Shown piece after piece: positions 4,913 to 60,300 of a stretch of DNA of 64,000 nt (positions are counted from its first letter, which is position 1; each line of letters begins with the position of its first letter). The position numbers were made by a program, and so were the translations under genes. The notes under the pieces are model-generated. The model saw nothing but the letters and a program-made list of their open reading frames with translations, did no database searches and was not told the origin of the DNA. Source of the stretch: Stegostoma tigrinum. Its lineage: Eukaryota. The stretch spans positions 3,403,795 to 3,467,794 of the forward strand of contig NC_081400.1 in NCBI RefSeq assembly GCF_030684315.1, written 5' to 3'.

Positions 4913-6658
4913 GGACAAGTGATATTGTGGGATATAGAGACTGGAGGAGGTTACAATGATAGAGCTGGATGATTGAAAGCTGGTGTGAGATCTGGCGTGG
5001 TCCTGGCGTGTGTGGCAGCAGGAGTGAAATGGAGAATGAAAGACTGCAGAAGATAAACAGCAGGAAACCAGTTCGATTATTTTGAGTGGCTCATGGCCCT
5101 GTTGGTGGTAATGTGTGACATGACTGTGAAGGTGAGCGTTTGATGGAGCCTCCGCATTTTCCTTCCTGCTTGTGGGTGAAGCCACAGCTGCCTGTGTGAT
5201 GTTTTGAAGCTGACAATGATTGTGTGGCTGCTGCAAATCGCTCATTGATCAGGTTTCAGTTCCACTGCCAATATGACACACCCTTCCCCTCCATCTGGAG
5301 TGAGTGACCGCACCACCTGCAGCCCCTTCACAAACAGCCCAAATACAGTGTTACGTCGGTTCTCGGAAGCTAAAATGAGGCACTTGAAACAACACTCAGC
5401 TCCCCGAGGTTGAGGTCAGGAGAGAACGCTGCATTGAGGCACCACACAGATTCAGACTCGGATCCACCTCTCAGACAATGTCAATCATCATTGGACTAGT
5501 TTTTAATTGACTTCTGAAGTGCCTTTCCTGTATCCCAGCTTTCAAACGAACAAGCCTGAAAGAACAAGCGTAGACTCCAAACCAGTGAGAAGAGGCCATT
5601 CAGCCTTCCACCTTTCTCTGACTTTCCCACCATACGACATTCATACGCCACGTCCCTCGATTTACTCAGTGTGCAAAATTCGACACTGCATAGTCTTCCA
5701 TAGACATAGAGAATGCTACAGATTCACCAACCTCTGAGACGCAAAACCTTTTTTCATGTCAGTACAAAATCCCTTGTCCCGATCCGATCCCTTCAAGAAA
5801 TTTCCTATTTTCCTATTTTTAAAAATAAAGTGCACAAATCCACATTTCCCAAATGAAAGTTCATCAACTGAGTCTGAAACAAATGTTAATGTATTCTCTA
5901 TTCCATTTCAGCCTTGCTATTCAACTTCAAAACTTTCTCTTCCATCTTTATTCGCATCTTCAACTGCAGCACTCGTTTCACCACTTCTAAATATTTCTTC
6001 AATGTGGATGAGGGTTTTTACCGCAACCATCCTGACAATCAATGTGTGCCAGATACCGACCAAACTCTGCTTGAAAATAGTTTTCCTCACATGTGCTCTA
6101 AACGTCCTGTCCCTTAAGTTAAATCTGTGCTCCATTGTCAGCATGGACACCTTAGGCTGGAGGGCCTTTTGCTATACTCTCGGCCTTTGTGAGAGTGTGA
6201 CTGTCTGACACAAAGCAAGGACGGAAATTAAAGAGAAATGTATGTTTTCAACAAGGAGTTGGATGTAGTTTTCAGGGCCACAGGGATCAAACGTAATGGT
6301 GGAGGAAGTGGAAACAGGAGACTGAGTTGGAAACAAAAACAGAAGTTTCTGGAAAAGCTCAGCAGGTCTAGCAGCATCTGTGATTTATAATCAGAGCTAA
6401 CACTTCAAGTCCGGTGATCCATCCTCAGAACTGGACTGAGTTTGATGGTCAAACATGATCATCTTGAATGGAAGACCAGGCTCGATGGGCTGAATAGACA
6501 ACGTCTGACACTACTTGCTATGCTCAAATGTACTCAAAGTCCATTTGCACATTAAACTTGCATAAATCTGAAAGATTATTCTGTGGATAACGATGTTTGA
6601 AGCGAGAAATAGATCGGTGAAAACTCGGAGTGTCGATTTGCCTGCTCTCTGCTCCTTC

Positions 6659-6681
6659 ATTTGCATTCCAGTGAATAAATA
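6659..6681 (+). promoter_or_regulatory. IgL V promoter: octamer plus TATA-like box (cluster 1)
   Basis: ATTTGCAT at 6659-6666 in light-chain orientation, and TAAATA at 6676-6681, about 140 nt upstream of the leader ATG. Both motifs are conserved in cluster 2. Confidence 0.9.
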
Positions 6682-6806: not shown

Positions 6807-6855
6807 ATGTTTTCCATGGTGCATCTACTGTGGGCCCTGCTGCTCCATGTAACAG
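6807..6855 (+). CDS. IgL leader exon, cluster 1 (MFSMVHLLWALLLHVT-G)
   Basis: Hydrophobic signal peptide followed by a phase-1 donor ACAG|GTCAGA at 6856. Confidence 0.9.
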
Positions 6856-6962: not shown

Positions 6963-7288
6963 GTACCTTGGCCGTTCCTGTCCTCATTCAGAGTCAAATG
7001 TCTGACCCAGTCTTCGCCGGTCAGACCACCGGGTTGAACTGTGCGATGCAGAACGGGAAAGTGGGCAGCTACTATGTGTACTGGTACCGACAGAAACCCG
7101 GAGAGGCCCCGGTGTGGGTGATCAGGCAGGAGACTGATAATGATATATTCAGAGGGACCGGTTTCACTGACCGTTTCCAACCTTCTCGAGACGCCTACAG
7201 TAACAGTTTCATCCTAACTGTCGGAAACCTGGTCTCCAGTGACTCCGCCGTCTATTACTGTGCTGTGTGGAGTGGCTCAGCTGGTTAT
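6963..7288 (+). CDS. IgL V exon, cluster 1 (type I/NS5/sigma-cart-like); expected splice acceptor is AA, possible pseudogene
   Basis: Open frame with LNC, WYRQKPGEAP, DRFQPSRD and DSAVYYC motifs. Ends exactly at the RSS heptamer. Confidence 0.95.
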
Positions 7289-7316
7289 CACAGTGAGTCA
7301 GGCCAATACACTAACC
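7289..7316 (+). promoter_or_regulatory. V 12-RSS, cluster 1
   Basis: CACAGTG, 12-nt spacer AGTCAGGCCAAT, nonamer ACACTAACC. Confidence 0.95.
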
Positions 7317-7644: not shown

Positions 7645-7683
7645 GGTTTTAGGCCAGTCCTGCGTTTGTGACGCGCCTCTGTG
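7645..7683 (-). promoter_or_regulatory. J 23-RSS, cluster 1
   Basis: GGTTTTAGG (7645-7653), 23-nt spacer, CTCTGTG (7677-7683). Confidence 0.9.
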
Positions 7684-7721
7684 ATACACCTTCGGAGGTG
7701 GAACTGCCCTGACCGTTCGGA
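7684..7721 (+). CDS. IgL J segment, cluster 1 (YTFGGGTALTVR)
   Basis: FGxG motif followed by donor A|GTAAGT at 7722. Confidence 0.95.
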
Positions 7722-11330: not shown

Positions 11331-11373
11331 CATCCCATCATTTCTCTACCTCTCTCTCTTTCCCCACACACAG

Positions 11374-11696
11374 GTAGTGATGATCGGAAACCATCCGTAA
11401 TTCTGCTCCCACCTTCCCCAGAACAAATAGACACGGCATCAGCCATTCTGTCCTGTCTGGTGAGCAGCTTTAAGCCTGGCCTCGTGCAGGTCCTCTGGAG
11501 CGTGGATGGGAAAGAGACAGACAGTGGAGTGACCACAAGTGTCGTGTCCCCAGAAAGTGATCAAAGCTACAGCCTGAGCAGTTACCTGACAGTCACGGCC
11601 ACTGACTGGAAGAAAGGTTCCAGATATTCCTGTAGTGTGAGGCACGGATCACTGACCTCGCCTCTCCTCAACACCAGTAGCTCCAGCGACTGTTAG
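11374..11696 (+). CDS. IgL constant exon, cluster 1 (type I/NS5/sigma-cart-like)
   Basis: Acceptor tccccacacacAG, phase-compatible with J. SDDRKPSVILLPPS...LSCLVSSFKPG...W...YSLSSYL...YSCSVRHGSL...DC* is a C1-set domain with terminal Cys. Resembles horn/nurse shark type I C from memory. Confidence 0.95.
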
Positions 11697-14191: not shown

Positions 14192-15988
14192 TGGACAAAT
14201 ATCTAGCCGCATGGCATCAGCATCCAAAATTTAACTGGGATTTTCTGGGGCCAGATGACAGTACAACATCGGGATGGCTTCTGCTTCCTTCAGAAGAGTA
14301 GAAAAATGATGACTGCAAACTCCAACTTCACCCTGTTAACAAGAAAATGAAAGTGCTTTGAGCATGATCAGATTCGATTCAATCTCACTATATGAAAGAG
14401 CAGACTCATAGGCCTGGATGGCCTACTTCTGCCCCGACGTCGGATAATCCTTCTCAATTAAACCTGCACAAAAGAGGAGTTTCAATTTATGGTCAAGTGT
14501 AGTTCGGGATGAAAAGTGTTCATGTTACTCAGAATGTATCCTGAGACAGCGAGAATGTTAGTCTGAAGGAAACAAATGAAATACTGGGGCTAAATGATGA
14601 GCATTCAAGTGAATGTTAGAGTTTTACTAAGTTTCATTCTGAGTCAGGAATCTGAAGAACAAATTGGAGGCAATATCCAGGGAACACAACATTGTGCTGA
14701 CAGTGACCACGGCTGTCTTCTTCCTGCTCATGGGCTGTGAAATTGTGGGGCTCACCAATGTGGATCCTGATCACTTTCAAGTCGGTCTGGGGACGGCGTC
14801 AGAGCAATTTCACCGGTTGCTGCTGTCACCGACAGAGCTTTCTGTATATGTCCAGCACTGAAACCACACGGATAAGATGGAGTGCCAGGTGGGGTGGGGA
14901 TAAGATGGGGAGGGTGCGGTGGGCAGAGAGCAGGGAATCCATTCACAATGTTTGTTGTTTTCATTTTTGTGGAAATTACCTGACTTGAGTTGGAAAGGAA
15001 TGGGGCGCCCTGGAAAGAAATAGTGCCATGCCGAGACGATGCAACGACTTTCCTGTTCATGGATACAGAGCCCAGGTTTGACATTTGCTGAAGCTGAGCA
15101 GCATTCTCATCCGTCCTGCCCGGTGGCGCTGTGAGATATATATATAGTCATCCCAATCGCTAGGCGGCACTGTGACTGAAATATTTTCCCTTCCCTTCCT
15201 CTGGGGGAGCCTGCTGCTATTGTGTCTGTTGTCAACACATTCTCGTCGCTGCCGATAGGTGGCGATTAGTTACTGAAGTTCTTTCTTTGTTGAAAAAGGT
15301 TTTGTGGATCTGAATTATTACTGTCAGATTTACCTCGATACCGGAAAATATTTTGTTTATCATGTTCCACAGGCAGAGCATATCTTGTAAAGCTCATGAC
15401 AGTAATAAAACAGAGTTGAGAATACAATGCAATGATTATCGAGAAAAGGCACAAAGACCTGGAAATTTAATAACTTGAGCACTCCATGCAGAAATCCAAA
15501 AACAGCAGTGTAGGAGCAGTTTCTGAAAATGTGAGTGCGTGCGCTTCATGCTTTGTATCTTTTTCCTAATGTGAGAGGCTGGAAGAGACTATAACGTGCT
15601 TATGAGGGGATTTTGATTATATTGGCTCCCTTCCCGAGGCAGTGAGAAACATAACTGGAGCCAATTATAAAATTGAGGCCATCGTCTGTGCAACAGCTCG
15701 TCAATCAGCTCCAAGGCATCCGCAAGGTCTCTGCAAGATGTTCCGTCGTCGAGGCATCCCTGGTCTGGGTACAACAGAGATAAAACCAACAAGAATTCAC
15801 ACTTCAGGCATAGAAACGTGCGTCCGTGTTCCGGACACAATCTCTACCTCAGCGATGTGGCACTGCTCCCAGGATTCCCTGCTCTGGGCATCACGACCAC
15901 CAGCAATTCCAGCTCAGATGTGGAACTGAATACTTTCCTTCAGTCCCTGCATGTGCTCAAGTTCTCGCTCTTAGAACTATGTGAATAA
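14192..15988 (+). pseudogene. Unidentified multi-exon pseudogene fragment (exons ~14192-14297, 14648-14780, 14972-15075, 15678-15988)
   Basis: Phase-compatible exon-like blocks conserved in both units, with stops and a frameshift. Protein not recognised. Confidence 0.5.
15116..15265 (+). promoter_or_regulatory. Tandem CTCF-like motif array (unit A)
   Basis: CTGCCCGGTGGCGC 15116, TCGCTAGGCGGCAC 15157, CCTCTGGGGGAGCC 15198, CCGATAGGTGGCGA 15252, compared with consensus CCRSYAGRKGGCRS. Confidence 0.6.
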
Positions 15989-18900
15989 TGTATATTTTCA
16001 AACCAATGGCTGGAAAAACGCTGACTGATAAACATCATCAACCCTGCTGGCTGGTGGTGTATCGCATATACGTTATATTGACACAGTAATACCTGCTGGT
16101 ATGTAGCAATGTGAGTGATATATTTTTATTAATATATGCATACTCATCCCTGCTGCTGATGACACTGTAACTGAAACTTACTCTGATCTCTGTTGCGGGG
16201 TGAGATTTACTGCTATATAACACCAATATCTCTCACTGGTCCAACTGCTGGGAGGCACTGTGATTGCAGGGTTCGAGCTGTTATATTTCTTCAGCCCGCC
16301 AGTTGTGGAACACTGTGAATAACGATTTTTTTCCCATTCCTCATCAACTACCTTACATACTGCAATAAATCAGCTTTTGCAGGTCTGTGCTATCTCAAAT
16401 CATAATATTTACAACTGTTTTTCCACATCCATCCAGTTCAGCAGAAAGACCTTTGAATGAATCTGCGATAGAAATAGAAGCTGCTGGAAAAATTGAGCTG
16501 ATCTGGCAGCACCCCTAAGGAGAAATCAAAGTTAACGTTTTGGGTCCAGTGACCCTTTGTCAAAACTGGGACATCGTCTGTAAGGCCACCTTCAGAGGGA
16601 TCATCAACTGCATTTGCACTAAATACACGAACAGTTCTGATGAGGGCATCAATTTTCCTGGTTTTCAGAGTTGCCTGCAGATTAGAAAAGCTGTGTTCCC
16701 ATGCAGAAGGACCATAAGTACTCCTCTTCTTTCCCAAATTCCTCCCCAGTGGATTGACGGGAAAGTTGGTGGCCTCCTGAAACTCCTTCCAGCTTTTCAT
16801 GCCTACCACTCGGTGGCACTTTGGTCCGTGTTAATCTACGGATGCGCTGATCTGACTGGCTTTAACCTCTGCAGGTGCTAGCGTCTACCATTAGATGGAG
16901 CTACCGAGTCAGCAGTGTTGCAGATCCCTGGACATTGCCAAACTGTGTGAATCATCTCCCTTCTGCTGCAACATCGTGAAGACGACACTTCACCACGTCT
17001 CTCCCTATCGTTGTCGCTGACACATACCCAATTGTCATCCTCTCTCTGTCCCTCTCTCCCGTGTTCTCTGACTCTGACTTGCCATTTCTCCTCCTGTACT
17101 TTGTCTCTCACTGACCTTCTGGCACACATTCCCCTTGCTCACTGACATTGTCTCTCTGTCGTACTCTTTTCCCTTAATCCCCTCTCCCACTAGCAACTTT
17201 CTCTCACTCTCTCTCTACCACTTCTCATTTCTCTCCCTCCCCACCATCCTCTACTGCCTCTATCCTTCCCTGTCTCTCTACCTTTGACTCACTCCCTCAC
17301 ACACATTCTCTCTTCATTCATCATTAAATCTCATTCATCTTTCTCTCCCTCTATTTCGCTCCCACTTTACCCTCTCCCTTTTTTCCAAACCACTAACTCC
17401 TCTCAGATATCTCTCCATCACTCTGTCTCTCAGAAAGTCCTCTCCCTATCACTCTCTCTCTCTTTCATGTTTTCTGTTGCACTCTCTCCCAAATCTCTCC
17501 TCGCACTCTTTGCCTTTCTCTATCTGGCTTGCTGCAGTTCCTCTCACCCTCTTTAGTTCTAAACCTTTGCATCACACACTGGCTCTCTCTTCCCCCACCC
17601 CCCCCCCACTTCCCTCCCAACCTCTCCATGTTCCTTTCTTTCCATCTCTCACACTCCTCCTTCTTAGGTCACTCTCTCCAAACCCCTCTATCACAGTCTG
17701 ATTCTCTCTTAAGCACACTCTCTGTCTCACCCTCTCCCACCTTGCATTTGGACCTATCCTTTCTATCTCACCGCATCTCCGTGACTGCATTCTTCTAATA
17801 TTCCATTGTCTGATTTAATCTTCTGACATTTCTTCTTGCACAGACGTGAAAACTGATGCACGTTTCAACCGGTGTCGCCATCAGACTCAAGTCACTGCCC
17901 TCATGACTTACGTTTTGGGCTCTGTTGTACTGATTGACAGCAGAACCCCCAGAGGTGTCTTCTGATTGGCCCTGGGAGTGAAGTTTCAAATCTGCCATAA
18001 TCAACTGAGGAAGGAAGGATAAAATGTTGCCCAGGGTGGAGGAATATTTTCAGTATGTCTAATGTATACTGAGAACCAAGATCCCTGCTTTGACCTGAGG
18101 AACTGTAGTTGCTTCATGCGAATGTTAATGCACTTGCCAAAGCTGAGATGAAGGAGCTGTGCAGATGCACACTCTGGATTAAATCCCAACACAGGTTCAA
18201 TCAATCACTTGGTTAGTAAATCTGGAGCTTCATCTGCTTCTTGGTCATTGTGACAACTGCCATTGATAGTCACAACAGATAAAAAAAAACACAATCGAGG
18301 ATTTTACAATTGGGGGAAATTAATCTACTCTCATTGTCCCGTCTAAGCCTACATATGACACCAGACCCAGACAGAGATGGGAGTAAGGGGGCAACTCAGA
18401 TGTCCCCTCCGAGGAAGCCAAGGGTCAATTAAGGATGGACAGCGATGCTGGCCCCAACTGGTGGAAGTGCCTTCAAAGAATGATGTGGTGTGGGAATAAA
18501 TTCAGTCAGTAGGACCTTTCTGTGTTACCATGTTCCACTACCCCCAACCCCCGCATCTTCCATTATTACTGGTCTTGGTGTGCACACTGGCAATCTGTCT
18601 CTCTCTCACTTTCTTACTTTCCAAGCCAGTTAATAGGATGATAGATTTATTTTTAGATAATAATGACTTCAAGACAGAGCGTGGGGATATGTCATAAAGC
18701 AACGGTCAGATTGAATGCTGAACAGGCTCGGAGGGTGGAATGGCTTCCTTCTGCTTCAAGTTCCTGCATCATTCTCCCTGTCGCTCTCTGGTTTTCGTTC
18801 CATCTCATGGATTTGGAAAGGGCCTGGGAAATGAGGCTGGATGATGTGTTCTTTGTTTGTGTTCATCCCCAGCTGGAAGTTGTTCTGCTGGAGTAATTGC

Positions 18901-57365: not shown

Positions 57366-60300
57366 GGGGACATGCTGAGTTTGTGAAAGGTGCTATGCCA
57401 ATACAATCTCGCTGACTTGTTCTGACGGAACCATCTGCAACTCATCAGGCGTGACATCATGAAGGACTGAAAGTGGAATTGAAAGTCAGAGTTGGACCCG
57501 ATAAGGCAATTTTGCTGACAGCGTCTGATCAACCCTGCTTTCAGGAGTTATTCATCTTCGTTAATCCATAATGAAGATATAGAGGGAGATTTGCGGGAAT
57601 TTGCTCAGGGATGAAGGTCTTCAGTTAAAATTTTGCCCGCCTCCACCTTGTTCGTCAAACCCTTTAAGTTCATAATGTTTGAAATTTCAATCTCCATCCA
57701 GATACACATCTGATTGATGTGTCCTTTAGCAAGAGGCTAATAGTTCTCAGAACAGAACAACACATACAATTTCGTTGAAGATTTTTCAGGGTTTTTAAAG
57801 GCACTTTCCATCAATCAGAGACTTCTTTAAGAATGGAGGAATGTATCGAGATGGGTACAGTAACAGGGGCTGAAGGAGGTGAAAGAGATAGTGAGGGATG
57901 CAGCAGCTGGAGGAGGTTACAGAGATAGGCAGCGTCGTATGTGCTGGAGGTAACAGCTTGGGGAGTTTGGAGAGGCTGTAGAAGGTTGCAGACGTGTAAG
58001 TAGCGTCGAGTCGACATGAGGTAACAGAGATAGGGAGGGATGCAGGAGCTAGAGTATGTTACAGAGATAGTGCAGAGATTCGGGACTGTAGGAAGGACAG
58101 AGTTAGAGTTATGGGTGTCTGTAGCCCCGAAGCAGACCCTTTGATCAAACGTATCCAGATCCGTTAAATTTATCTCAACCCGTTTGCCAGCAGTTGACCC
58201 CTATCCCTCAAAAGCCTTCTGATTCATGGACCCATTCAAATACCTTTTAAGAATAATAATTGTACCGTTCTCTGCCTCTTTCTTTGGCAGCTCATTCCAC
58301 AGAAGCACCACCATCTGTGTGAAAAAATTGACTCTCAGGCCCCTTTTAAAACTTCCACTCTGACGTTAAATGTATCCCCTACTCTGTGAAAGAAAGACCT
58401 TTTACTATTCATCCTGTCCATGCCTCCTATGATTTTATATACTTCTATTAGGTCACTTCTCAGCTTGCAACATGACAGGAAGGAAAGCCCGAGCCCATTC
58501 AGCTTCTCCAGACAGCTGAAACCCTCAAAGCCGAACAACATCCTGGTGAAAATTTTCTGAACCCTTTCGAACAGAACAACATATTTCCCACGGCAGGTAA
58601 AACAAAACTGAAGATAACAAAGTGTGAAGATGGATGAACACAGCAGGTCAAGCAGCATCTCAGGAGCACAAAAGCTGACGTTTTGGGCCTAGACCCTTCA
58701 TCAGAGAGGGGGATGGGGAGAGAGTTCTGGAATAAATAGGGAGAGAGGGGGAGGCGGAGAGACAAGAAGATAGGTGGAGAGGGAGTATATAGGTGGGGAG
58801 GTAGGGAGGGGATAGGTCAGTCCAGGGAAGACGGACAGGTCAAGGAGGTGGGATGAGGTTACTAGGTAGGAAATGGAGGTGCGGCTTGAGGTGGGAGGAA
58901 GGGATGGGTGAGAGGAAGAACAGGTTAGGGAGGCGGAGACAGGCAGCGCTGGGTTTGGGATGCAGTCGGGGGAGGGAACGAACTGGGCTGGTTTTGGGAT
59001 GCGGTGGGGGAAGGGGAGATTTTGAAGTTTGTGAAGTCCACATTGATACCATTGGGCTGCAGGGTTCCCAAGCGGAATATGAGTTGCTGTTTCTGCAACT
59101 TTCGGGTGGCATCATTTTGGCACTGCAGGGGGCCCATGATGGACATGTCGTCTGAGGAATGGGAGCGGGAGTTAAAATGGTTCGCGACTGGGATGTGCAG
59201 TTGTTTACTGTGAACCGAGTGGAGGTGTTCTGCGAAGTGACCCCCAAGCCTCCGCTTGGATTCCCCAATGTAGAGGAAGCCACACTGGGTACAATGGATA
59301 CAGTACACCACATTGGCAGATGTGCAGGTGATCATCTGCTTCATATGGAAAGTCATTTTGGGGCCTGGCATGGGCGTGAGGGACTCGGTGTGGGGGCAAC
59401 TGTAGCACTTCCTGCGGTTGCAGGGAAAAGTGCCGACTGTGGTGGGGTTGGAGCGGCGTGTGGAGCGAACAAGGGAGTCACGAAGAGAGTGGTCTCTGCG
59501 GAAGGCAGACAAGGGTGGGGATGGAAACATGTTTTGGGTGGTGGGGTCGGATTGTAGACGGCGGAAGTGTCGGAGGATGATGCATTGTATCCGGAGGTTG
59601 GTGGGGTGGTAGGTGAGAACGAGGGGGATCCTCTTGGGGCGTTTGTGGCGGGGTGTGAGGGATGTGTTGCAGAAAGTGCAGGAGATGCGGTCAAGAGCAT
59701 TCTCGACCACTGCGGGGGGAACATTGCGGCCCTTGGAGAACGTGGGCGTCTGGGATATGCGGGAGTGGAATGCCTCATCCTGGGAGCAGATGCGGCGGAG
59801 GCGAGGACTTTGAATAGGGGATGGAATTTTTGCAGGAGGGTGGGTGGGAGGAGGTGTATTCTAGGTAGCTGTGGGAGTCAGTGGGCTTGAAATAGACATC
59901 GGTTTCGAGCTGGTTACCTGAGATGGAGACTGAGAGGCCCAGGAAGGTGAGGGACGTGTTGGAGATGGCCCAGGTGAACTTGAGGGAGTTCCCATCATGA
60001 CAAAACAAAACTGAATGCAGTTTTCTGAAAATGACCCAACCGATATCCTGTAAAGATGCAAAATGACATCCGAGCTCTTGTATTCAATGCAGTGATCAGT
60101 GAAGACAAGCGTGCCCAGGTCATTCTGCACCATATTGTTTACCTGTGCGTCCACTTTCAAGGAAGTATGCACATGAGCATGTGCAACAACGTCATTTTAT
60201 TTGTTAACAGTGCCCAAGGCATCCCATTAACTCTGTATATATGGTGCCCTGACTTTACTTGCCCAAATGTAATGCCTTATCGAGGTGTTAAGGCAGAAAA

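What the first reader, a model, noticed from the sequence alone, without database searches (positions are those of the whole stretch)
15100..16901. Co-oriented CTCF-like motif array between successive Ig clusters: candidate insulator enforcing cluster-autonomous V(D)J recombination
Seen: about 3.4 kb after C lies a degenerate tandem repeat (unit ~ATTCTCATCCCTG-CCGCTAGGTGGCGC-TGTG). It places CTCF-like cores at 15116, 15157, 15198 and 15252 (spacing 41, 41, 54). Further + strand cores occur at 16245 (CTGCTGGGAGGCAC), 16806 (CCACTCGGTGGCAC) and 16888 (CCATTAGATGGAGC). All recur in unit B (44987, 45028, 45069, 45122, 47253, 48287, 48369), with CpGs retained in CpG-poor DNA. Known: shark Ig clusters rearrange mainly within a cluster, and mammalian CTCF elements (IGCR1, Igh 3'CBEs, Igk Cer/Sis) limit cohesin-driven RAG scanning by orientation. 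Inference: these forward sites face the next cluster and could stop its J reaching the upstream V (J at 36384 and V at 7288 are 12/23-compatible and only 29 kb apart). Each duplicated unit would thus carry its own boundary. I am not aware of this being described in sharks but cannot check.
Basis: partly seen in the sequence, partly recalled or inferred. Interest (0 to 1): 0.78.

Follow-up and report, generated by a model that had tools for sequence, protein, structure and literature searches.

The report
CTCF boundary between shark antibody clusters
Between neighbouring shark antibody light-chain genes sits a copied block of same-direction motifs matching the binding site of the genome-folding protein CTCF; it likely acts as a partly decayed one-way barrier that would help keep each gene rearranging on its own, but binding is untested and three other antibody loci of this genome show no such block.

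Summary
The window holds two of three tandem, unrearranged sigma-cart-type IgL clusters. All 14 reported cores are at the stated places. Nine of 14 pass p<=1e-4 with a recalled CTCF matrix, all on +, which shuffles rarely match (1/1000, 0/1000). Four cores are decayed copies of a locus-specific 41-bp unit with a near-ideal consensus. The 16888 site carries the CTCF upstream motif in register in 8 of 10 paralogues. Part of the block recurs upstream of the first cluster and none follows the last, so it is the unit's 5' flank, about 19-21 kb before V and facing J, like mouse Igk Sis. Evidence for constraint is mixed: column tests give p 0.01-0.075, while score retention in unascertained copies is neutral (8 of 12 vs 7.6). 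The kappa, IgW and C34 IgL stretches lack arrays; IgM spacers carry one forward site each (picked post hoc). Binding and hybrid joints were not tested, and 394-bp V-J proximity could explain autonomy alone. Verdict: probably a real, partly decayed boundary that contributes to insulation, not a general shark mechanism. The scan noted a decaying CTCF minisatellite near Ig DNA in another genome (e1-9337679).

The parts
15101..15270 (+). Block I: four degenerate copies of a 41-bp unit, each with a CTCF-like core (19-mers at 15113, 15154, 15195, 15249; 1.5, 9.6, -1.1, 11.4 bits)
   Evidence: unit consensus 20.8 bits; DNA search finds this block only in 4 clusters of this locus
16140..16270 (+). Block Ib: further decayed unit copies (19-mers at 16149, 2.2 bits, and 16242, 2.9 bits), below threshold
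16803..16821 (+). Site S6, CTCF core outside the repeat, 13.8 bits; 8 of 10 paralogues score 11.0-19.8
16870..16903 (+). Site S7: upstream (ZF9-11-type) motif at 16870-16878 plus core at 16885-16903, 13.2 bits
   Evidence: TGCAG at offset -15 in 8 of 10 paralogues and TGCAA in a ninth; core passes 7.76 bits in 4 of 10 (c1a, c1b, A, B)
44972..45140 (+). Unit B block I (19-mers at 44984, 45025, 45066, 45119; 12.7, 9.6, 3.4, 8.1 bits)
46428..46446 (+). 12.5-bit hit inside a LINE insertion present in unit B only; recurs in unrelated loci; not part of the ancestral block
47250..47268 (+). Unit B decayed unit copy, 3.6 bits
48284..48302 (+). Unit B site S6, 14.3 bits (best hit of the window)
48351..48384 (+). 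Unit B site S7: upstream motif plus core, 11.8 bits
6807..7316 (+). Cluster A leader (6807-6855), V exon (6964-7288) and 12-RSS (7289-7316); octamer at 6659
   Evidence: V-set domain
7645..7721 (+). Cluster A 23-RSS (7645-7683, read on -) and J (7684-7721); 394 bp from the V RSS
11373..11696 (+). Cluster A C exon
   Evidence: C1-set
35664..36016 (+). Cluster B V exon and 12-RSS (35989-36016), 19-21 kb downstream of array A
36345..36421 (+). Cluster B 23-RSS (36345-36383, read on -) and J
40138..40461 (+). Cluster B C exon

Best explanation
The block is a set of same-direction CTCF motifs lying about 19-21 kb upstream of each light-chain V and copied with each tandem duplication; its four or five best sites likely still bind CTCF and would form a one-way barrier to cohesin loops growing upstream from the next cluster. 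SHOWN: motif match, shared orientation, position in the 5' flank, upstream motif at S7, copying with the unit, partial decay. INFERRED: CTCF occupancy; blocking of extrusion from the 3' side; and, as a result, a limit on RAG scanning from the J of cluster B towards the V of cluster A and on enhancer contact between clusters. The barrier would be a back-up to the main cause of autonomy (own V 394 bp away, single J) at a locus whose co-oriented rearranging clusters are unusually close (29-38 kb).
For: Enrichment over shuffles and permuted matrices. The unit consensus scores 20.8 of a possible 27.7 bits. S6 and S7 are not repeat copies yet share the orientation. S7 has TGCAG at -15; the -15/-14 register is also used by four unrelated strong sites in this genome (6 of 126 hits >=10 bits at -15, three of them S7 paralogues; background 0.0034 per position), and this motif marks enhancer-blocking CTCF sites (PMC12885311, passages). 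Informative columns change less than matched flank columns: 25 vs 31.9 (p 0.075, old copies plus A), 23 vs 32.7 (p 0.017, old copies plus B), 5 vs 12.2 (p 0.01, young copies other than B). Core CpGs kept 29 of 32 vs 218 of 316 in flanks. S2, S4, S6 and S7 all pass in c1, A and B, which precede intact genes; the array before the V-less cluster c5 keeps 2 of 5 sites and has an insertion, and the copy upstream of the first cluster has both cores broken. Skate TAD borders have oriented CTCF sites (PMC10115646, passages). Sis orientation and its effect on scanning.
Against: No occupancy data. Scores are moderate (none at p<=1e-6) and position 9 of S6 is non-consensus in 4 of 5 young copies. In copies not used to define the finding (c1, c4), 8 of 12 sites pass vs 7.6 expected under neutral decay (p 0.54); the excess for c1+A+B (15 of 17 vs 10.6, p 0.016) includes the ascertained A and B. 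Taking A's hits to c1 and c4, array sites are kept 5 of 8 vs 4 of 13 for other hits, a difference I did not test formally. Region II alone shows no significant constraint (p 0.08-0.36). Old copies retaining 4 sites fit decay from a strong ancestor (retention 0.33-0.47 per site). The array between B and the germline-joined cluster c4 is intact although no J-RSS lies downstream. No such array in the kappa, IgW, IgM or C34 IgL stretches.
Confidence: 0.5

Rival explanations
1. Decaying relic. The block was a CTCF boundary 5' of the single ancestral gene, was copied passively with each duplication and now drifts; any binding is incidental. Autonomy comes from 394-bp V-J proximity, one J per cluster (lost on joining) and non-consensus RSS nonamers that would pair poorly at a distance.
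For: Neutral score retention in c1+c4; all 23 unit copies used score below the 20.8-bit consensus; cores broken in old copies c0, c5, c7 and c9; no arrays at other Ig loci; two mismatches in each nonamer; weak RSSs support little diffusional joining in mouse (PMC11153149, passages); a similar conclusion was reached for another shark CTCF minisatellite (e1-9337679, unchecked).
Against: Fewer changes at informative columns, retained core CpGs, upstream motif kept in register, and decay concentrated where no intact gene follows or precedes.
Confidence: 0.33
2. Dedicated, required RAG-scanning stop. Every rearranging shark cluster carries its own forward CTCF boundary, and this enforces intra-cluster V(D)J joining.
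For: Sis-like orientation and position. One gene-forward core, with an upstream motif in 10 of 16, recurs in 16 IgM spacers on both arms of the C55 locus; 13 of 16 score >=15 bits.
Against: The IgM site was picked post hoc for being conserved, and one CTCF site per ~110 kb is ordinary density (own knowledge). No array in kappa (231.5 kb), IgW (200 kb) or the C34 IgL loci (200 kb). Proximity suffices in principle.
Confidence: 0.1
3. The motifs are read by another zinc-finger factor, or are a chance product of a GC-rich minisatellite.
For: A 41-bp spacing may be too tight for simultaneous binding (own knowledge); block I copies lack the upstream motif in register; the matrix is recalled.
Against: Permuted matrices give no such counts (0 of 1000); two non-repeat sites match in the same orientation, one with the two-part motif, which is also used in lamprey (PMC5504073, passages).
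Confidence: 0.07

Closest known systems
Mouse Igk Sis element (downstream-oriented CBEs; PMC11153149, passages read)
   Same: CTCF motifs upstream of a 23-RSS J and pointing at it; there, RAG scanning from J ends within Sis, 8 kb upstream.
   Different: Sis lies between V and J of one translocon and is paired with the upstream-facing Cer. Here the block lies 5' of the cluster's own V, separates whole V-J-C units, is copied per unit, has no oppositely facing partner found, and is untested.
Mouse Igh IGCR1 (CBE2) and the ten 3'Igh CBEs (PMC10293834, passages read)
   Same: IGCR1 is an upstream anchor that ends scanning; the 3'CBEs are a run of co-oriented sites just 3' of C genes; CBEs impede extrusion in either orientation, better in the normal one.
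   Different: IGCR1 is a divergent pair. The 3'CBEs face back into their own locus, whereas these sites face away from the C they follow, so they are not 3'CBE-like in orientation.
Tandem co-oriented CTCF arrays and CTCF-bearing repeats (Pcdh HS5-1 region PMC7087399; ICCE/DXZ4 PMC6125249; search listings and abstract starts only)
   Same: Clustered same-direction sites, partly made by tandem repetition.
   Different: Short, old, degenerate 41-bp unit confined to one Ig locus; moderate scores.
Shark IgL NS5 / sigma-2 / sigma-cart locus (PMC2435157, passages; PMC5192425, passages)
   Same: V-12RSS / 23RSS-J / one C; about 390 bp between V and J (880 vs 490 bp in the legend; 394 bp here); a mix of rearranging and germline-joined genes.
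   Different: Here nine C exons lie in one co-oriented tandem, and rearranging units are 29-38 kb apart, against 82 to >200 kb quoted for IgH clusters. The isotype label also rests on recalled sequence likeness.

Membership tests
CTCF-binding element | Core motif match above background | tested here: met
   9 of 14 cores at p<=1e-4; shuffles 1/1000 and 0/1000; permuted matrices 0/1000; matrix recalled
CTCF-binding element | Upstream (ZF9-11) motif in register | tested here: met
   S7 only: TGCAG at -15 in 8 of 10 paralogues; absent at the other sites
CTCF-binding element | Purifying selection on the core | tested here: inconclusive
   column tests p 0.01-0.075; score retention neutral in c1+c4, p 0.54
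CTCF-binding element | Unmethylated core CpGs | tested here: inconclusive
   bisulfite reads gave depth under 2 at the sites and no per-CpG rows; evolutionary CpG retention 29 of 32 vs 218 of 316 in block I only
CTCF-binding element | Occupancy by CTCF and cohesin in vivo | not testable with these tools
   no ChIP run among the 10 listed
Sis/IGCR1-CBE2-type RAG scanning impediment | Sites upstream of the J recombination centre and oriented towards it | tested here: met
   all passing sites in A and B on +, about 19-21 kb upstream of the next V-J
Sis/IGCR1-CBE2-type RAG scanning impediment | Compatible RSS lies beyond the element | tested here: met
   12-RSS of V(A) at 7289 and 23-RSS of J(B) at 36383, deletional orientation; also c1 to A
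Sis/IGCR1-CBE2-type RAG scanning impediment | Scanning ends at the element, and deleting it releases distal joins | not testable with these tools
   needs HTGTS or a reporter
3'Igh-CBE-type 3' anchor | Sites face back into their own locus and follow the last C | tested here: not met
   sites face away from the preceding C; no copy after the last C; a region II copy precedes the first V
General boundary of shark Ig clusters | Comparable array between clusters of other isotypes | tested here: not met
   no group of 4 same-strand hits in 1.8 kb in C34 (200 kb), IgM (400 kb), IgW (200 kb) or kappa (231.5 kb); one forward site per IgM spacer is a post hoc lead; IgNAR and TCR loci not examined
Dispersed repeat or transposon carrying CTCF sites | Many copies genome-wide | tested here: not met
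   DNA searches: 4 and 8 matches, all in this locus; patterns: 1 and 4 matches in 3.2 Gb; these searches give lower bounds

The most novel reading that the evidence does not exclude
The duplicated unit of shark Ig clusters includes its own J-facing CTCF boundary: an array where clusters are only 30 kb apart (sigma-cart), and a single two-part site in the ~110-kb IgM spacers. Loop-extrusion control of RAG scanning would then date to the gnathostome ancestor and explain cluster-autonomous rearrangement and one-cluster-at-a-time activation.
Probability: 0.15. Interest if true: 0.78.

Novelty: new variant of a known kind. Interest (0 to 1): 0.45.

Why it matters
Shark Ig genes rearrange almost only within a cluster (PMC2435157: 97 rearrangements with one possible exception, passages), and the passages I read name no insulating element. 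This block gives a concrete, coordinate-level candidate at the locus where co-oriented rearranging clusters were closest among those examined. It can be checked against CTCF ChIP-seq already made in two sharks (cited in PMC7471279). If bound and conserved, it would extend CTCF control of V(D)J recombination to cartilaginous fish. If not, it is an example of a boundary carried passively by segmental duplication.

Tried and rejected
TRF did not detect the 41-bp unit. Dispersed-repeat origin: rejected. A 3'CBE-like reading: rejected on orientation and on the copy upstream of the first V. The 46428 hit: dropped as LINE-borne. Bisulfite runs X5-X7 (about 1 in 100 of each read): depth under 2 at the sites, most laid reads came from a repeat at 16464-16631, so nothing was learned on methylation. 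No RNA holder was listed, so hybrid V-C transcripts were not examined. A motif scan for enhancers found paired E-boxes 3' of C (14886/44758, 16872/48353) but nothing that defines an enhancer. The PDB search did not identify the isotype. The IgM constraint test (p about 0.02; 40 of 509 13-column windows as conserved) is not counted as support because the site was chosen for its conservation. Literature: nine searches combining shark, skate or cartilaginous fish with CTCF, insulator, loop extrusion, RAG scanning, intercluster, miniloci, NS5, Igl or Tcrg listed no paper describing CTCF sites at shark Ig clusters. I saw listings and abstract starts only. The library lacks most subscription journals, and the 2018 shark genome paper with the ChIP-seq data is not held, so its supplements may bear on this. 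Term searches inside PMC2435157 and PMC12227049 found no mention of CTCF or insulator.
Full report
SETTING. The window is G000:C60:3403795-3467794 of a 3.2-Gb genome. It holds two copies, A and B, of a roughly 29-kb unit at 75-90% identity. Each has a leader, a V (V-set), a 12-RSS, 394 bp, a 23-RSS, one J and one C exon (C1-set). The layout and V-J distance match the nurse shark NS5 (sigma-2, sigma-cart) legend in PMC2435157 (passages); the label also rests on recalled sequence likeness. A genome search with C found nine related C exons in one + strand tandem on C60. In 374 kb around the window, only c1, A and B are split genes with intact RSS. c4 and c6 are germline-joined, c9 appears joined (output partly cut), c5 has lost V, and c7 and c8 are broken.

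OBSERVATION. With MA0139.1 counts recalled from memory, A scores 1.5, 9.6, -1.1, 11.4, 2.9, 13.8, 13.2 bits and B scores 12.7, 9.6, 3.4, 8.1, 3.6, 14.3, 11.8. Nine of 14 reach p<=1e-4, none 1e-6, and six of the window's seven best hits are among them. A has 4 + hits and no - hit (1 of 1000 shuffles as high). B has 6 + hits, one LINE-borne (0 of 1000). Permuted matrices reach neither count (0 of 1000). One of 1130 background strand-windows has 4 hits, and two unrelated 4-hit groups occur in the same 374 kb. The cluster is therefore beyond chance but not unique.

ANATOMY. Block I is four copies of a 41-bp unit, with more decayed copies at 16149 and 16242. The consensus of 23 copies scores 20.8 bits, above every copy. 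S6 (16803) and S7 (16885) are not unit copies. S7 has TGCAG at offset -15 in 8 of 10 paralogues. Among 126 hits of >=10 bits in 1.06 Mb, TGCA[AG] lies at -15 in six (three are S7 paralogues) and at no other offset in more than two. The two-part motif is used from lamprey to mammals (PMC5504073, passages) and marks enhancer-blocking sites (PMC12885311, passages). The block is not a dispersed repeat.

WHERE IT BELONGS. Region II (S6, S7) has a 66%-identical copy 20 kb upstream of the first V, collinear down to that V. The last cluster has a copy 18-20 kb upstream and none after its C. So the block is the 5' flank of the unit and points at the unit's own V-J. That is the orientation of Sis, where scanning from Jk ends (PMC11153149, passages), and the opposite of the 3'Igh CBEs (PMC10293834, passages). 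Block I has no detectable copy upstream of c1. Oriented CTCF sites at TAD borders are documented in skate (PMC10115646, passages).

IS IT MAINTAINED? For: informative columns show fewer parsimony changes than base- and CpG-matched flank columns, 25 vs 31.9 (p 0.075) and 23 vs 32.7 (p 0.017) with old copies, and 5 vs 12.2 (p 0.01) among young copies other than B. CpGs in block I cores are kept in 29 of 32 cells vs 218 of 316 in flanks (p 0.006; cells not independent, A and B included, and the nearest flank is also fairly high at 36 of 48). S2, S4, S6 and S7 pass in c1, A and B, while the array before V-less c5 keeps 2 of 5 sites and is split by a 230-bp insertion, and the 5'-most copy has both cores broken. 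Against: region II alone is not significant (p 0.08-0.36). In a neutral simulation with flank rates, the unascertained copies c1 and c4 keep 8 of 12 sites vs 7.6 expected (p 0.54), and the excess for c1+A+B (15 of 17 vs 10.6, p 0.016) includes ascertained copies. S6 has drifted at a high-information position in 4 of 5 young copies, and S7 is broken in five old copies. Edge copies are also simply the oldest. The array before the joined cluster c4 is intact, which fits enhancer insulation better than a pure RSS barrier. Overall: weak constraint on top of clear decay.

GENERALITY. No group of four same-strand hits in 1.8 kb occurs in the C34 IgL loci (200 kb), IgM (400 kb), IgW (200 kb) or kappa (231.5 kb). 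Co-oriented clusters in the kappa, IgW and IgM stretches are about 80-115 kb apart, against 29-38 kb here. One core recurs gene-forward in 16 IgM spacers; 13 score >=15 bits and 10 carry the upstream motif. I selected it for being conserved, and one site per 110 kb is ordinary, so it is only a lead. IgNAR and TCR loci were not examined.

MECHANISM. Most likely (0.5): the better sites bind CTCF and stop cohesin arriving from the 3' side, so the J recombination centre and enhancers of cluster B are kept from cluster A. Position, orientation and motif are shown; binding and blocking are inferred. This would back up, not create, autonomy: J-bound RAG meets its own V after 394 bp, joining removes the only J-RSS, and both nonamers carry two mismatches. 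Rivals: a decaying relic (0.33), a required and general RAG stop (0.10), or not CTCF (0.07).

NOT SETTLED. Bisulfite reads were too shallow. Occupancy, chromatin contacts, hybrid joints and cross-species conservation were not tested.

NOVELTY. Nine literature searches (listings and abstract starts) showed no description of CTCF elements at shark Ig clusters; the library is incomplete and the shark ChIP-seq paper is not held. Papers read as term-matched passages: PMC2435157, PMC12227049, PMC5192425, PMC10293834, PMC10115646, PMC10484683, PMC11153149, PMC12885311, PMC9263370, PMC7471279, PMC5504073. Abstract and outline only: 10.64898/2026.04.12.717890. No supplements were read. The scan earlier judged another shark CTCF minisatellite beside Ig DNA to be incidental (e1-9337679; unchecked). 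CTCF boundaries at antigen-receptor loci are a known kind; one copied per V-J-C unit and placed between miniloci is a variant. Interest 0.45: it makes an old question testable with existing data, but the evidence for present function is mixed and the pattern is not general.

Noticed in passing
G000:C55:3390186-4904175 (L106-L120 and C55:4718498): One CTCF core recurs in 16 IgM spacers, always in the direction of the genes on both arms of an inverted array, about 33-45 kb upstream of V where measured or estimated; 13 of 16 score >=15 bits and 10 carry the upstream motif. The two weakest are the most diverged copies.
   Followed up: partly
G000:C60:3692550-3692653 (L164): Three + strand CTCF cores 41 and 44 bp apart (7.2, 16.2, 15.8 bits), CpG-rich, with a spacer like that of the IgL unit and an upstream motif on the third; no flanking homology to the IgL block. 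It looks like a better preserved relative of the unit.
   Followed up: partly
G000:C60:3472643-3473000 (L011), just 3' of the window: Cluster c4 is a germline-joined, in-frame V-J about 85% identical to the split clusters, so a recent germline joining; c6 is joined too and c9 appears so.
   Followed up: partly
G000:C60:3391034-3397535 (L009-L010): The spacer between c1 and A carries an internal duplication giving two copies of S6 and S7; one S6 scores 19.8 bits.
   Followed up: yes
window 5308-5326 and 34023-34041, - strand: A weak reverse-oriented CTCF-like hit (9.4 bits) about 1.6 kb upstream of V is kept in all four young units and would be convergent with the array.
   Followed up: no
G000:C60:3563777-3564445 and 3675125-3675793: Two near-identical non-rearranging V plus C-type Ig superfamily genes lie inside and just after the light-chain tandem.
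   Followed up: no
G000:C60:3345246-3346737 (-) and 3588041-3589955 (+): Two other groups of four same-strand CTCF hits within 1.8 kb, unrelated to the array; the first lies 27 kb upstream of the first V and points away from the locus.
   Followed up: no
window 58840-59860, - strand: Retroelement fragment whose translation resembles a Penelope-type GIY-YIG endonuclease region (recalled likeness, not tested); many LINE and SINE fragments fill the spacers.
   Followed up: no
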